IMG/VR virus record: IMGVR_UViG_2541047910_000003
Span: 1 to 55,048 of that record
DNA from: a virus
Taxonomy: Duplodnaviria > Heunggongvirae > Uroviricota > Caudoviricetes
DNA: 55,048 bases
Direction: 5' to 3' (one strand)
Shown here: positions 43,822-47,077 of the stretch, one piece after another
How positions within the stretch are numbered: the stretch's first letter is position 1
Layout of the letters: every line of letters begins with the position of its first letter
Notes under the pieces: model-generated
What the model was told of the DNA's origin: nothing
The model's input: only the letters and a program-made list of their open reading frames with translations
The model's database searches: none
Position numbers and translations under genes: made by a program

Positions 43822-44118
43822 TCAGAATTGCATATCAATTTGCTTAAAATCCTCGGTGGCGCCCGGGGATTTTTTCTTTGTGATTTCATCAAGCGCATAC
43901 TTAAAAGCCCTGCTAATCGCACTGATGTCTGATGCCATTCCGAAAGCACACAAGACCGAAGCAATAAATCTCCAGTCCGTTCTGCTTATCTTCGATTCAT
44001 GACAGCCAATCATCTTTGCCAGACCGCGCTGGGTAAGCGTTGACAGGTTGATGAGTAAATCAGTTTCAGCGCGATCAATTTCTCGCTGTGTTGGCTTGCT
44101 GTAGCTTGCTTGTGCCAT
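43822..44118 (-). CDS. cII: CII-like transcriptional activator
   Basis: C-terminus [18 protein letters not shown] parallels lambda CII KKRPAATERSEQIQMEF; [14 protein letters not shown]. Confidence 0.75.
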
Positions 44119-44167
44119 TTGTTAATTTTCCTATATTGATATTGAGTTATAGCGGCACACCCAATGG

Positions 44168-44226
44168 ATTTGCCGCTGATGTTTGCTCACCCGGTTAGAG
44201 GTGAAAGGCCAGAACTGTTAAAGAGC
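44168..44226 (-). promoter_or_regulatory. nutR-like site: boxA (tgctctttaaca) and boxB-like hairpin between cro and cII
   Basis: boxA-like sequence read on minus strand. Confidence 0.4.
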
Positions 44227-44233
44227 AATTTGC

Positions 44234-44419
44234 TTATGCCGCTTGGCGGTAAGCACTTTCTTGATACTTCAGGGCGCCAGCTGTAACGATTTCCAATCGA
44301 TAGGCGTCTTTCTCTGGGATAACTTCTTTCCACTGAGAGACTGCTGCATCGCTAATGCCTAGTGCTTTAGCAACAGCACGCTGGGTTCCGAAGTGGTCAA
44401 TAACATCTTTTTTGTACAT
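44234..44419 (-). CDS. cro: Cro-like repressor (HTH)
   Basis: 61 aa, HTH GTQRAVAKALGISDAAVSQW, divergent from cI. Confidence 0.7.
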   Translation of the reverse strand: MYKKDVIDHFGTQRAVAKALGISDAAVSQWKEVIPEKDAYRLEIVTAGALKYQESAYRQAA

Positions 44420-44499
44420 AGACTCGCTCCGAAATTAAAGAACACTTAAATTATCCACCAAAGGAATCTTAAGTCAAGTTTATTTAAGATGTCTTAACT
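44420..44499. promoter_or_regulatory. Immunity operator/promoter region between cro and cI with repeated ttaaga/tcttaa-containing half-sites
   Basis: atcttaagtcaagtttatttaagatgtcttaact palindromic elements. Confidence 0.5.
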
Positions 44500-45150
44500 A
44501 TGAATACACAACTGATGGGTGAGCGTATTCGCGCTCGCAGAAAAGAACTCAAGATTAGGCAGGCTGCCCTTGGCAAGATGGTTGGCGTGTCTAATGTTGC
44601 TATTTCCCAATGGGAGCGATCTGAAACTGAGCCCAATGGCGAAAACCTATTGGCCTTAGCCAAGGCTTTGCAGTGCTCCCCTGATTACCTGTTGAAAGGA
44701 GAGGATAGTCTTTCAAACATTGCCTATCACAGCAGGCATGATCCAAGAGGTTCGTATCCTCTAATTAGTTGGGTAAGCGCAGGATGTTGGATGGAAGCTG
44801 TAGAGCCATATCATAGGCGTGCAATAGATAACTGGTACGACACAACGGTAGATTGTTCTGAAGACTCTTTTTGGCTCGACGTTAAAGGCGATTCAATGAC
44901 TGCCCCGGCAGGACTGAGTATTCCTGAGGGGATGATTATTCTCGTCGACCCAGAAGTCGAACCACGTAATGGAAAGCTGGTAGTCGCCAAACTTGAAGGA
45001 GAAAACGAGGCGACATTCAAAAAGTTAGTTATTGATGCCGGTAGAAAATTCCTGAAACCACTCAATCCACAATACCCAATGATTGAAATCAATGGGAACT
45101 GTAAAATCATTGGCGTTGTCGTTGATGCCAAGCTAGCAAACCTTCCTTAA
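44500..45150 (+). CDS. cI: CI repressor (HTH + LexA-like S24 peptidase autocleavage domain)
   Basis: N-terminal HTH LGKMVGVSNVAISQWE; C-terminal GDSM...K catalytic Ser/Lys pattern. Confidence 0.9.
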   Translation: MNTQLMGERIRARRKELKIRQAALGKMVGVSNVAISQWERSETEPNGENLLALAKALQCSPDYLLKGEDSLSNIAYHSRHDPRGSYPLISWVSAGCWMEAVEPYHRRAIDNWYDTTVDCSEDSFWLDVKGDSMTAPAGLSIPEGMIILVDPEVEPRNGKLVVAKLEGENEATFKKLVIDAGRKFLKPLNPQYPMIEINGNCKIIGVVVDAKLANLP

Positions 45151-45178
45151 GGGGCTTTCGCCCCTTTTTTATTTCCCG
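45151..45178 (+). terminator. Terminator after cI (ggggctttcgcccc + T-run)
   Basis: Read directly. Confidence 0.7.
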
Positions 45179-45314
45179 TTAAAAATCAAAGACAAACTAA
45201 ATTCACGCCCATAGAATTAAGTTTTCTTCAAAAATGCACTTGACCAATAAATTAAGAAGTCTTAAATTTAAGCCATCAGCAGGACGCTGGAAGCCAAACG
45301 GAACAGATTGGCAG

Positions 45315-45358
45315 GCTCTTTAACATCGACGGACTCTCAACCTAACCGTTGAGACCAG
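45315..45358 (+). promoter_or_regulatory. nutL: boxA (gctctttaaca) + boxB hairpin (tctcaac ctaacc gttgaga)
   Basis: Consensus-like boxA and perfect 7-bp stem upstream of N. Confidence 0.6.
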
Positions 45359-45464
45359 AACTTGAGTGGTTTTGGGGATGGCGCGAATTGCAGCTGCAAG
45401 ACAGCGATCGAGAAGATAAGCACCTCGACGCGTCATGCGCCAAAGCCACTTAAAGGAGATCATC

Positions 45465-45770
45465 ATGGTAACCATTGTCTGGAAAGAATCCAAAGGTACG
45501 GCAAAAAGCCGCTACAAAGCTCGCAGAGCAGAACTTATTGCCGAGCGACGCAGTAATGAAGCACTGGCGCGAAAAATTGCGCTAAAGCTCTCTGGTTGCG
45601 TCAAAGCAGACAAAGCAGCATCACTAGGAATCCTTTGCTGCAAGAAGAAAGAAGAAGTCGTTCGAAAAAATAGAAGTATTTATTACAAAGATTCAAACCC
45701 ATTAGGAAACAAAATACATGCAGTCCAAAAAATAAAATTGTACAGTAAACTACCGTACGGTGCTTATTGA
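45465..45770 (+). CDS. N: N-like antiterminator (phage 21-type Arg-rich motif), with AT-rich variant 3' end
   Basis: MVTIVWKESKGTAKSRYKARRAELIAERRSNEALARK matches phage 21 N; SD aggaga upstream. Confidence 0.8.
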   Translation: MVTIVWKESKGTAKSRYKARRAELIAERRSNEALARKIALKLSGCVKADKAASLGILCCKKKEEVVRKNRSIYYKDSNPLGNKIHAVQKIKLYSKLPYGAY

Positions 45771-45772
45771 GT

Positions 45773-46111
45773 ATGCTTATGGTGAAAAAGACTATTTATG
45801 TTAATCCTGACCGCGGACAAAACAGAAAAGTATCTGATAGAGGTCTTACATCTCGAGACAGGAGGAGAATAGCGAGATGGGAAAAGAGGATAGCATATGC
45901 ATTAAAAAACGGTGTAACACCTGGATTTAATGCTATAGATGACGGTCCTGAATATAAGATTAATGAAGACCCAATGGATAAAGTTGACAAAGCATTAGCA
46001 ACACCATTTCCTCGCGATGTCGAAAAAATTGAAGATGAAAAATATGAGGATGTAATGCACAGAGTTGTTAATCACGCTCACCAACGAAATCCAAATAAAA
46101 AATGGTCATAG
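45773..46111 (+). CDS. AT-rich hypothetical moron protein immediately downstream of N
   Basis: ORF followed by terminator cccacttcggtggg + T-run at 46113-46135. Confidence 0.45.
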   Translation: MLMVKKTIYVNPDRGQNRKVSDRGLTSRDRRRIARWEKRIAYALKNGVTPGFNAIDDGPEYKINEDPMDKVDKALATPFPRDVEKIEDEKYEDVMHRVVNHAHQRNPNKKWS

Positions 46112-46175
46112 CCCACTTCGGTGGGTTTTTTATTGTCTGAACAAATCTAATTTACTACCGCAAGCCACGCAGTGA

Positions 46176-46235
46176 AATGGGTGTGACTTGTGTTGGTCGC
46201 CAGAAAATGAAATTAGGCAGCAAACCACTTATTTG
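46176..46235 (+). pseudogene. Displaced remnant of N 3' end (MGVTCVGRQKMKLGSKPLI*)
   Basis: Matches canonical N C-terminus (..VTCVGRQKIKLGSKPLI). Confidence 0.5.
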
Positions 46236-46355
46236 AGGTGAGATATGGAAGAACAAGCAAACAAGATTCTCGTATAACTACTGCAAAAAGCCAGTAATGG
46301 AATAGACGCGGCTGTTTCATTCAGCCAGGCACAGATTCCTGATGTTGTTCATCAG

Positions 46356-46667
46356 TTGCTAATATGGAGTTTTGTCCATAGCGCACTTTTCCAAGTGGCT
46401 GGGTTGTTGCTTTTAATTGCAGCAATGAAACTTCCTGGTTTTGCAAGAACGGCAAGAAATAATGGCGAGAGATGGACGTCTTTAGATGGATGTCCAAATG
46501 ATAGATATTTTATATCTTCGTTTTATTACGATATATGCACCGTATTTGCTCCTATATATTGCTCAATTATTGGCGTTTTAATTATCGCCTTCAATTTCGA
46601 ATGGTTGAAGATTTGGCTTGCACCTAAGTTATTCCTAATTGAATATGCAGCATCATTGGTTAAGTAA
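46356..46667 (+). CDS. Small membrane protein (two TM segments), AT-rich moron flanked by terminators
   Basis: Hydrophobic stretches ALFQVAGLLLLIAAM and FAPIYCSIIGVLIIAF; terminator at 46671-46697. Confidence 0.45.
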   Translation: MLIWSFVHSALFQVAGLLLLIAAMKLPGFARTARNNGERWTSLDGCPNDRYFISSFYYDICTVFAPIYCSIIGVLIIAFNFEWLKIWLAPKLFLIEYAASLVK

Positions 46668-46906
46668 TTTCAGGCCGCATAGTCGGCCTTTATTTTTGGC
46701 ATAAACAACAGAATAAACACTGCACTGTGTATTCATTCCAACGAGTGAATACACGGAGCAATGTCGCTCGTAACTAAACAGGAGCCGACTTGTTCTGATT
46801 ATTGGAAATCTTCTTTGCCCTCCAGTGTGAGGGCCTTTTTATATGCATACCAATAACGCTTCACTCGAGGCGTTTTCGTTATGCAATCAAACAGAAGGAG
46901 CATCCT

Positions 46907-47077
46907 ATGCAACAGTTCGCTATTGCAGGGGCGGCATCGGTTCGCCCTTTCAACCCGATTTTATCGGTGCAGCATTCACGAAAGAATATTTTAACCGGAG
47001 CAGACTTTAAACAACCAAGAATGAAAAGTTTGCTCGAAAAGCTTTGGGATATTTTGAAACAACAAGGCCGCCCATGA
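46907..47077 (+). CDS. cIII: CIII-like protein
   Basis: MQQFAIAGAAS...LLEKLWDILKQQGRP parallels lambda CIII MQYAIAGWPVAG...LLERITRKLRDGWKRLIDILNQPGVP. Confidence 0.6.
   Translation: MQQFAIAGAASVRPFNPILSVQHSRKNILTGADFKQPRMKSLLEKLWDILKQQGRP

What the first reader, a model, noticed from the sequence alone, without database searches (positions are those of the whole stretch)
45640..46240. Mosaic N gene: AT-rich moron inserted with replacement N 3' end, leaving a displaced N C-terminal remnant
The N-like ORF (45465-45770) is phage-21-like for ~75 codons and then switches to AT-rich sequence encoding a variant C-terminus (..KIHAVQKIKLYSKLPYGAY). It is followed by an AT-rich 113-aa ORF (45773-46111) and terminator. 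Then at 46176-46235 comes a normal-GC fragment encoding MGVTCVGRQKMKLGSKPLI*, the canonical N C-terminus. The moron appears to have been acquired by recombination within N 3' sequences, carrying its own N tail. The cargo protein, directly downstream of N in the ral/sieB neighbourhood, is uncharacterised and may be an anti-restriction, exclusion or defence factor.
Basis: partly seen in the sequence, partly recalled or inferred. Interest (0 to 1): 0.55.

Follow-up and report, generated by a model that had tools for sequence, protein, structure and literature searches.

The report
Nun exclusion gene inside mosaic N
The "uncharacterised cargo" after the N gene is Nun, a well-studied phage HK022 protein that lets a prophage block infection by phage lambda, and the split, mosaic N gene around it is real but occurs in about 4% of complete E. 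coli genomes.

Summary
The sequence observation holds; the key interpretation does not. N (45465-45770) is phage-21 N for about 61-65 codons. It then switches to an AT-rich tail, a 112-aa ORF and a hairpin terminator. The last 29 codons of a 21/CUS-3-type N follow at 46150-46236, displaced and unstartable.

The cargo is not uncharacterised. It is HK022 Nun, 108 of 109 residues identical to PDB 6ALG chain N. Nun binds lambda boxB RNA and arrests RNA polymerase, which excludes lambda.

The AT-rich N tail is not aberrant. It is a natural N C-terminal type, closest to Salmonella phage ES18 N. It carries the annotated nun promoter hexamers (45718-45723 and 45741-45746). HK022 keeps the same 39 codons as a non-coding remnant upstream of its own nun.

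The prophage's own nut sites are 21-type, so Nun should not act on it.

The same arrangement is in phages mEp235, mEpX1, Kapi1, PA28 and Stx1a phages. Among 5426 complete E. coli genomes, 221 match nun (219 over at least 80% of the query). 219 also have the N-centre-to-nun junction, and 188 have the nun-to-remnant junction.

The gene and its function are already known. The modest new points are descriptive: nun normally follows N, the promoter lies inside N codons, and other cargo occupies the same N breakpoint.

The parts
44187..44204 (-). nutR boxB hairpin, phage-21 type (UCACCU-CUAACC-GGGUGA); boxA-R lies at 44219-44226
   Evidence: Mapped from the phage 21 annotation; sequence and fold.
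44500..45150 (+). imm21/P22 c2-type CI repressor (216 aa) with its terminator at 45149-45166
   Evidence: Pfam HTH_3 plus Peptidase_S24; annotations of mEp235 and phage 21; terminator scan.
45240..45268 (+). pL promoter (TTGACC, 17 nt spacer, TAAATT), overlapping the OL operators
   Evidence: Promoter scan. It lies just upstream of the position equivalent to the annotated phage 21 pL start, about 45275.
45315..45354 (+). nutL: boxA GCTCTTTA (45315-45322) and 21-type boxB TCTCAACCTAACCGTTGAGA (45335-45354)
   Evidence: Phage 21 annotation mapped onto the window; fold. This is not a lambda-type boxB.
45465..45770 (+). Hybrid antiterminator N (101 aa): phage-21 arm and centre, nun-linked C-terminal tail
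   Evidence: PHROG 271 at E 3e-30.
45465..45647 (+). The phage-21-derived part of N (about codons 1-61): arginine-rich arm and conserved centre
   Evidence: 96-98% identical to phage 21 and L010; alignment.
45648..45770 (+). The nun-linked N tail (KEEVVRKNRSIYYKDSNPLGNKIHAVQKIKLYSKLPYGAY*), GC 0.30. The same DNA is a non-coding remnant upstream of nun in HK022, HK75 and O276 (from 45653).
   Evidence: ES18 N and L015 N carry this tail type in intact genes.
45718..45746 (+). Nun promoter: -35 ATGCAG (45718-45723) and -10 TACAGT (45741-45746), inside N codons 85-94
   Evidence: 'nun gene promoter' features in the O276 record, mapped by exact match. Both hexamers are unchanged in the 74%-identical locus L015.
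45773..46111 (+). nun, the transcription arrest and exclusion factor (112 aa from ATG 45773; 110 aa from 45779; 109 aa from GTG 45782, as in the PDB entry)
   Evidence: 108 of 109 residues identical to 6ALG chain N, E 2.5e-71; 26 of 26 identical to the 1HJI peptide; PHROG 5632 at E 4.5e-71.
46110..46133 (+). Intrinsic terminator after nun (AGCCCAC-TTCG-GTGGGTT plus a T-run)
   Evidence: z -3.07. It differs from HK022 by a compensatory A-T to G-C change. The hairpin is degenerate in PA28, HK75 and KTa005.
46134..46149 (.). Junction filler between the nun unit and the N remnant; origin unclear
   Evidence: Shared with mEp235 and PA28 only. Match to phage 21 is at chance level.
46150..46236 (+). 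Displaced N C-terminal remnant (N codons 72-100 plus stop, CUS-3/21 type). A stop lies in frame upstream and there is no ribosome-binding site.
   Evidence: NCBI's PGAP pipeline annotates the equivalent remnant in L017 as an incomplete 'regulator' pseudogene.
46236..46256 (+). 21-bp boundary sequence (TGAGGTGAGATATGGAAGAAC). In CUS-3 it flanks ral on both sides; ral is absent here.
   Evidence: The overlapping alignments to CUS-3 1252-1272 and 1581-1601; CUS-3 annotation.

Best explanation
This is the left-operon start of an imm21-type lambdoid prophage that carries the HK022 nun exclusion unit fused into its N gene.

In the lysogen (inferred from HK022), CI shuts pL, so N is not made. The weak constitutive nun promoter, embedded in the last about 17 codons of N, produces a short transcript. 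That transcript ends at the hairpin after nun.

When a phage with lambda-type nut sites infects, the Nun arginine-rich arm binds the nascent lambda boxB RNA. With the Nus factors, the Nun C-terminus wedges into the elongation complex and stops translocation just downstream of nut. The invader's early genes are then not expressed.

The resident phage escapes because both of its boxB hairpins are 21-type. On induction, the hybrid N binds these and carries polymerase through the nun terminator.

Origin (inferred): a phage with a native N-nun pair, whose N had this tail, recombined homologously with a 21-type N in the conserved N centre. An illegitimate join just past the nun terminator re-entered the recipient N at codon about 70-72. 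This left the old 29-codon tail stranded.
For: Identity of the cargo: 108 of 109 residues match Nun in the cryo-EM complex 6ALG. The one difference, S10R, lies outside the arm. The boxB-binding peptide of 1HJI matches 26 of 26, and the C-terminal residues H93 to W108 studied by mutation are all present. PHROG 5632 'Nun-like' matches at E 4.5e-71.

Mechanism: taken from the literature (PMC5386594; PMC4496710).

Promoter: the features annotated in O276 map exactly to 45718-45746. They are conserved in a 26%-diverged homologue.

Terminator.

Self-compatibility: nutL and nutR are 21-type. There is no lambda-type boxB beyond one chance-level 2-mismatch hit 40 kb away.

Mosaic map: window 45150-45687 matches phage 21, 45653-46128 matches HK022, and 46150-46256 matches the phage 21/CUS-3 N 3' end.

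Native tail: the tail occurs in intact N genes of ES18 and L015, and in L015 nun follows directly.

Viability of the hybrid N: the same N-nun-remnant structure is present in the isolated phages mEp235, mEpX1 and Kapi1.

Prevalence in 5426 complete E. coli genomes: 221 match nun (219 over at least 80% of the query), 219 have the N-to-nun junction, and 188 have the nun-to-remnant junction.
Against: No expression or exclusion data exist for this prophage or, as far as I could find, for any phage that has both N and Nun.

The consensus promoter scan did not flag the nun promoter, whose hexamers are weak. I could not read the primary promoter paper (King et al. 2000), so its position rests on the O276 GenBank annotation and on my memory of the abstract.

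The post-nun hairpin is degenerate in PA28, HK75 and KTa005, so termination there may not be general.

That Nun ignores 21-type nut sites is recalled from Robert et al. 1987. It was not tested here.

The order and number of recombination events cannot be fixed. PA28 switches from 21-type to nun-type sequence about 20 nt further right than this window does.
Confidence: 0.88

Rival explanations
1. One reading: the cargo is an uncharacterised moron protein, possibly an anti-restriction or new defence factor.
For: Pfam and NCBIfam have no model for it. RefSeq labels it 'hypothetical protein' or 'transcriptional regulator' in E. coli genomes. It sits where ral lies in phage 21 and CUS-3.
Against: It matches HK022 Nun at 108 of 109 residues, and Nun has solved structures and decades of genetics. 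Phage records annotate it as Nun.
Confidence: 0.02
2. There was no insertion into N. The N-tail-nun arrangement is simply the native form of one N lineage, and the downstream 'remnant' came with a separately acquired block (the gene at 46245-46667) that dragged along the 3' end of its former neighbour N.
For: L015 has a native N-nun pair with this tail. KTa005 has the same hybrid N and nun without any remnant, joining at 46703 as in HK022 and HK75. In CUS-3 and L018 the remnant sequence is contiguous with the downstream genes.
Against: The N 5' part is 96-98% identical to phage 21, while the tail is only distantly related to the phage 21 tail, and the composition shifts at the switch. A crossover inside N is therefore still needed. 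This rival changes only which partner is called donor and which recipient. It does not change what the parts are or what they do.
Confidence: 0.3
3. The N remnant is kept because it is functional, for example as a small peptide (MGVTCVGRQKMKLGSKPLI), as an RNA element, or as the translation-initiation context for the next gene.
For: It is 100% identical across several otherwise different prophages (L010, L018). It ends in the conserved boundary sequence that carries the next gene's ribosome-binding site and ATG.
Against: No Shine-Dalgarno sequence precedes ATG 46177, and a stop lies in frame upstream. No Rfam family matches. PGAP treats the equivalent remnant as a pseudogene. KTa005, HK022 and HK75 lack it altogether. 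The high identity is equally explained by recent spread.
Confidence: 0.05

Closest known systems
Nun of coliphage HK022 (PDB 6ALG chain N and 1HJI; PHROG 5632)
   Same: 108 of 109 residues are the same. The boxB-binding arm and the C-terminal arrest residues are identical. The upstream 120 bp with the annotated promoter hexamers matches, and the downstream hairpin is homologous with a compensatory stem change; the whole unit is 96.8% identical in DNA over 476 bp.
   Different: HK022 has no N. It uses put RNA, and the 39 N-tail codons upstream of its nun are a dead remnant with the stop mutated to TGG. Here those codons are the working 3' end of a complete N, and the phage uses 21-type N/nut antitermination. 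There is one substitution, S10R.
N-Nun region of phages mEp235, mEpX1, Kapi1 and PDP110P1 (98-99.6% identical) and of PA28 and Stx1a-converting phages (91%)
   Same: They share the architecture: 21-type nutL, hybrid N, nun and the displaced N remnant. N and Nun are already annotated in mEp235, mEpX1 and PA28.
   Different: The downstream genes differ. PA28 switches to the nun-type tail about 20 nt later, has an N that runs 11 codons further and overlaps nun, and has a degenerate hairpin.
Phage 21 N / nutL / ral region (OL657228)
   Same: The region from OL/pL through nutL to N codons 1-61 is 96.5% identical. The last 29 codons of N are 96% identical to the remnant.
   Different: Phage 21 N is uninterrupted (100 aa) and is followed by ral. 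It has no nun.
Morons as defined for HK97 and HK022 (a promoter-gene-terminator unit of atypical composition added between conserved genes)
   Same: The unit has its own promoter, one gene and a terminator. Its GC is low, and it is absent from otherwise near-identical relatives.
   Different: The unit is not intergenic. Its left end is the coding 3' domain of the neighbouring essential regulator N, and its promoter lies inside those codons.

Membership tests
HK022 Nun (PHROG 5632) | Full-length sequence similarity to Nun | tested here: met
   108 of 109 identical to 6ALG_N, E 2.5e-71; PHROG 5632 at E 4.5e-71 over 112 of 112 positions.
HK022 Nun (PHROG 5632) | N-terminal arginine-rich arm that binds lambda boxB RNA | tested here: met
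   Residues DRGLTSRDRRRIARWEKRIAYALKNG match 26 of 26 residues of the peptide in the Nun-boxB structure 1HJI. Binding itself was not assayed.
HK022 Nun (PHROG 5632) | C-terminal arrest determinants (H93, R94, N97, H98, H100, R102, K106, K107, W108) | tested here: met
   The C-terminus ...HRVVNHAHQRNPNKKWS is identical. The residue list comes from PMC5386594.
HK022 Nun (PHROG 5632) | Constitutive prophage promoter just upstream of nun | tested here: met
   The annotated O276 hexamers are present unchanged at 45718-45723 and 45741-45746. Activity was not tested.
HK022 Nun (PHROG 5632) | Excludes phages with lambda-type nut sites but not the carrier phage | not testable with these tools
   Indirect support only: the carrier's nutL and nutR are 21-type and there is no lambda boxB.
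Lambdoid N antiterminator (PHROG 271; Pfam N_peptide) | N-terminal arginine-rich arm with a cognate boxA-boxB nut site in both early operons | tested here: met
   The arm is identical to that of phage 21 N. 21-type nutL lies at 45315-45354 and nutR at 44187-44226.
Lambdoid N antiterminator (PHROG 271; Pfam N_peptide) | Profile match | tested here: inconclusive
   PHROG 271 matches at E 3.3e-30 over residues 1-99. Pfam PF25694 scores 18.4 bits, below its 27.9-bit cut-off.
Lambdoid N antiterminator (PHROG 271; Pfam N_peptide) | Intact C-terminal polymerase-binding domain | tested here: inconclusive
   The tail is homologous to the tails of the intact N proteins of ES18 and L015 and keeps IYY...G...QKIKL.SK. 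The same hybrid N is in isolated phages. No functional assay was done.
Moron (promoter-gene-terminator add-on) | Own promoter, own terminator, atypical composition, and absence from close relatives | tested here: met
   Promoter, terminator, GC 0.36 against 0.44-0.48, absent from phage 21 and CUS-3. Caveat: the left end is coding sequence of N, and the hairpin is degenerate in some relatives.

The most novel reading that the evidence does not exclude
The boundary before the C-terminal domain of N (codons about 62-72) is a recurrent cassette-exchange point in lambdoid phages.

Cargo units arrive with their own N tail, which in the nun unit also houses the cargo's promoter. Old N tails are left as stacked remnants. 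The conserved N centre and the remnant then serve as homology arms for swapping cargo.

On this view nun's natural home is directly after N, and the textbook HK022 ('Nun instead of N') is the derived exception, with a truncated N.

Relatedly, Nun-like proteins with arms copied from lambda N or phage 21 N would form a family of exclusion factors retargeted to different nut types.
Probability: 0.45. Interest if true: 0.45.

Novelty: already known. Interest (0 to 1): 0.25.

Why it matters
Practically, it corrects an annotation gap. Nun has no Pfam or NCBIfam model, so RefSeq labels it hypothetical in about 220 complete E. coli genomes, including O26, O103, O111, O145, O157 and O55 strains and Stx1a phages.

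Biologically, it changes the usual picture. In the E. coli data searched here, Nun almost always coexists with an N antiterminator of a different nut specificity rather than replacing N as in HK022. Carrying an anti-lambda arrest factor next to a 21-type N is therefore a common competitive strategy among lambdoid prophages.

The promoter embedded in N codons and the stranded N tails are a clear example of how mosaic joints form inside a gene at a domain boundary. None of this opens a long-standing question.

Tried and rejected
- Pfam and NCBIfam scans of the cargo gave nothing. Identity came from the PDB sequence search and PHROGs.
- The consensus sigma-70 scan found no promoter inside the N tail. 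The annotated nun promoter has weak hexamers, so the scan is uninformative there.
- The primary promoter paper (King et al. 2000, PMC94296) is not held. I used the O276 GenBank features written by the same author.
- Literature searches for any description of N and Nun in one phage, or of an N remnant in HK022, found nothing relevant. This does not show it is undescribed, because the older papers are not in the library.
- A lambda-type boxB search gave one 2-mismatch hit at 2719-2733, at chance level (17 of 100 shuffles) and far from any nut context. I rejected it as a self-target.
- Rfam gave no match in 44000-47000 or in the HK022-like loci, and Rfam appears to have no put family. I showed putL in L012-L014 by direct BLAST instead.
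- I first read the A-T to G-C change in the terminator stem as covariation support. PA28, HK75 and KTa005 have degenerate hairpins, so I give it little weight.
- I considered microhomology at the right junction (ATTTAYTAC, the IYY codons, present in both tails). The 46134-46149 filler matches phage 21 only at chance level, so the join mechanism remains open.
- I did not run structure prediction or fold searches, because a solved structure of the same protein exists.

Full report
**What is in the sequence.**

The region is the start of the leftward early operon of a lambdoid prophage, read on the + strand. In order it contains:
- An imm21/P22-c2-type repressor (44500-45150) with its terminator.
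- pL (45240-45268).
- A phage-21-type nutL, with boxA at 45315-45322 and boxB TCTCAACCTAACCGTTGAGA at 45335-45354.
- A 101-codon N gene (45465-45770).
- Two bases later, a 112-codon ORF (45773-46111), followed by a hairpin with a T-run (46110-46133).
- After 16 nt of unassignable sequence, 87 nt (46150-46236) that encode the last 28 residues and the stop of an N protein. An in-frame stop lies upstream of them and there is no ribosome-binding site.

GC falls from 0.48 in the N 5' part to 0.30 in the N tail and 0.37 in the cargo gene, then returns to 0.44 in the remnant. Two refinements apply. The remnant starts earlier than reported (IYYRKPRSEMGV...). The switch inside N is at about codons 61-65, not 75.

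**The mosaic map.**

Pairwise BLAST against reference phages gives a clean three-part map:
- Window 45150-45687 matches phage 21 (OL/pL, nutL, N 5' part) at 96.5%.
- Window 45653-46128 matches HK022 at 96.8%. This covers 120 bp upstream of nun, nun itself, and the hairpin.
- Window 46150-46256 matches the 3' end of phage 21 N (nt 1979-2085 of locus L001) at 96.3%, and CUS-3 N at 94%.

Relative to phage 21, about 490 bp are inserted and only about 20 bp of N are missing.

**The cargo is Nun.**

The ORF is 108 of 109 residues identical to 'Transcription termination factor nun' in the cryo-EM structure 6ALG (E 2.5e-71). It matches 26 of 26 residues of the Nun peptide in the boxB RNA complex 1HJI. 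The single difference (S10R) lies outside the arginine-rich arm. The C-terminal residues probed by mutagenesis (H93 to W108) are all present. PHROG 5632 'Nun-like transcription termination factor' matches end to end.

Pfam and NCBIfam have no model for it. This is why RefSeq genomes call it hypothetical, and probably why a reader without tools could not place it.

Nun's function is well established. It is made by the repressed HK022 prophage. It binds the boxB hairpin of nascent lambda nut RNA through its arm, in competition with lambda N. With the Nus factors, its C-terminus blocks RNA polymerase translocation, so lambda early transcription stops. No role other than lambda exclusion is known (PMC5386594; PMC4496710).

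**The 'variant N tail' is a natural tail that doubles as the nun promoter.**

The tail ...KEEVVRKNRSIYYKDSNPLGNKIHAVQKIKLYSKLPYGAY aligns with the phage 21 tail ...AEEVERKQNRIYYSKPRSEMGVTCVGRQKIKLGSKPLI. It is closest to the tails of intact N proteins of Salmonella phages such as ES18 (...ERKKNRIYYHDANPLGNKIHAVQRIKLNSKPLI).

At 90% identity or more, the tail is found only next to nun (31 phage records). In HK022, HK75 and O276 the same 39 codons sit between putL and nun as a dead remnant. There is no N 5' part, and in HK022 the stop has mutated to TGG.

The O276 record was annotated by R. King, who mapped the nun promoters. It marks the nun promoter -35 (ATGCAG) and -10 (TACAGT). These map by exact match to window 45718-45723 and 45741-45746, inside N codons 85-94.

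Metagenomic locus L015 carries an N with an unrelated arm (MTNREHKKLLRAIRHQQG...) and the same tail type, followed 8 nt later by a 65%-identical nun. Its DNA is only 74% identical to the window over tail plus nun. Even so, both hexamers and most of the 37-nt block around them are unchanged. I infer that an N tail with an embedded promoter, followed by nun and, in this window, a terminator, is a co-inherited unit, and that HK022 holds a truncated copy of it. From memory of the abstract of King et al. 2000 (the paper could not be opened), the promoter is constitutive in lysogens and its transcripts are expected to end after nun.

**Why N and Nun can share a genome.**

Both nut sites of this prophage are 21-type. 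The nutL sequence is given above, and nutR boxB UCACCU-CUAACC-GGGUGA lies at 44187-44204 on the minus strand. No lambda-type boxB occurs beyond one chance-level hit 40 kb away. Nun's arm is the lambda-boxB-specific one. From memory (Robert et al. 1987), HK022 excludes lambda but not phages with 21-type N/nut. The resident phage should therefore be spared while lambda-nut competitors are arrested. This step is inferred, not shown.

**How common it is.**

The same N-nun-remnant arrangement occurs in mEp235 (98.8%), mEpX1, Kapi1 and PDP110P1, and at 91% in PA28 and a set of Stx1a-converting phages. N and Nun are already annotated side by side in mEp235, mEpX1 and PA28.

Among 5426 complete E. coli genomes:

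| Feature searched | Genomes |
|---|---|
| nun, any match | 221 |
| nun, at least 80% of the query covered | 219 |
| N-centre to tail to nun junction, at least 80% covered | 219 |
| nun to remnant junction, at least 80% covered | 188 |

The HK022 arrangement (put RNA, no N) is thus essentially absent from these genomes. The count of junction-bearing genomes equals the count of genomes with full-length nun. KTa005 shows that remnant-free N-nun phages also exist.

**How the structure probably arose.**

The N centre (...ARKIALKLSGCVRADKAASLGSLRCKK...) is conserved among N proteins with different arms (phage 21, CUS-3). It provides a homologous crossover zone. The window, mEp235 and KTa005 switch to nun-type sequence by 45648. 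PA28 switches about 20 nt later. HK022's remnant starts at 45653. This fits repeated homologous exchange, not a single fixed scar.

The right junction has no detectable homology, so an illegitimate join must have re-entered a 21/CUS-3-type N at codon about 70-72. An equally valid description is that a downstream block carrying its neighbour's N 3' end was joined to a native N-nun phage. That changes the labels 'donor' and 'recipient', not the anatomy.

**The same breakpoint holds other cargo.**

Two E. coli prophages show the same pattern with a different insert. They are L010 (strain 2017-02-2CC, phage 21 arm) and L017 (WP3-W18-ESBL-08, CUS-3 arm). Each has an N that diverges at the same point (phage 21 nt 1957 in L010) into a different tail (...GSICLPNVAIYAAGYRKSKQLTAR). 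An unrelated ORF of about 120-125 aa follows, and then an N remnant that again starts at ...LYYRKPRSEMGV. PGAP annotates the L017 remnant as an incomplete 'regulator'.

This suggests that the N domain boundary is a recurrent exchange point. I did not survey it systematically, and I offer it only as the most novel reading not excluded by the evidence.

**Verdict.**

The headline, an uncharacterised cargo, is wrong, because the cargo is the classical Nun exclusion factor. The whole arrangement is already present, and partly annotated, in sequenced phages and about 4% of complete E. coli genomes. The residual interest is descriptive: a promoter inside N codons, HK022 as a truncated derivative, and other cargo at the same site.

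Noticed in passing
window 46245-46667 (stop at 46275-46277): The membrane-protein gene after the remnant (PHROG 3054, unknown function) is 97.7% identical in DNA to CUS-3 ECRS218_0047. It has a GAA-to-TAA nonsense change at codon 11, leaving only a 103-aa ORF from TTG 46356. It is probably a pseudogene or an N-terminally truncated product.
   Followed up: partly
window 46236-46256: ral is absent. The 21-bp sequence TGAGGTGAGATATGGAAGAAC matches both the N/ral junction and the junction between ral and the next gene in CUS-3. This is a short repeated boundary sequence across which ral appears to have been lost or never gained.
   Followed up: partly
L010 1693-2341 (NZ_AP027764.1) and L017 1299-1830 (NZ_AP022003.1): A different cargo sits at the same N breakpoint: an alternative N tail (GSICLP...AGYRKSKQLTAR), an ORF of 120-125 aa with no Pfam, PHROG or NCBIfam match, and in L010 a reverse 54-aa ORF. 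A displaced N remnant starting at LYYRKPRSE follows.
   Followed up: partly
L007 2240-3180 (Hafnia phage Pocitis76, OL512804.1): N is followed 3 nt later by two Nun-like proteins that share the Nun C-terminus (..VVNHAHQRN..KKW). The first has an arm MDAQARRREKRKAKQEEWKKQN. It is 50% identical over 52 residues to a lambda-like N (E 5e-16). It looks like an arrest factor carrying an N-type arm.
   Followed up: partly
L013 2376-3940 (metagenome ERR3406188) and L012 468-1603 (Citrobacter braakii MTJW01000031): A near-exact HK022 putL (51-52 of 52 nt) lies about 75 nt upstream of a 60-66%-identical nun homologue, with no N tail between them. L013 then encodes a 97-aa Nun-like protein with a phage-21-like arm (E 9e-5 to the N of this window), followed by a lambda-like N. 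L012 has an N-tail remnant ORF (..ERKNHRTWYKDANPFGNKIHAVQKSRGKSTPLI) directly after nun. The 21-armed Nun-like protein would be predicted to target phages like the one in this window.
   Followed up: partly
window 45740-45758: The imperfect palindrome GTACAGTAAACTACCGTAC overlaps the nun promoter -10 and the expected start site. It is not conserved in L015, and its significance is unknown.
   Followed up: no
E. coli RefSeq genomes; protein cluster P0001: Nun is labelled 'hypothetical protein' or 'transcriptional regulator' throughout RefSeq E. coli genomes. Cluster P0001 has 556 member sequences on 860 contigs. One variant, P0003, has a 7-residue duplication (RIARWEK) inside the RNA-binding arm.
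   Followed up: no
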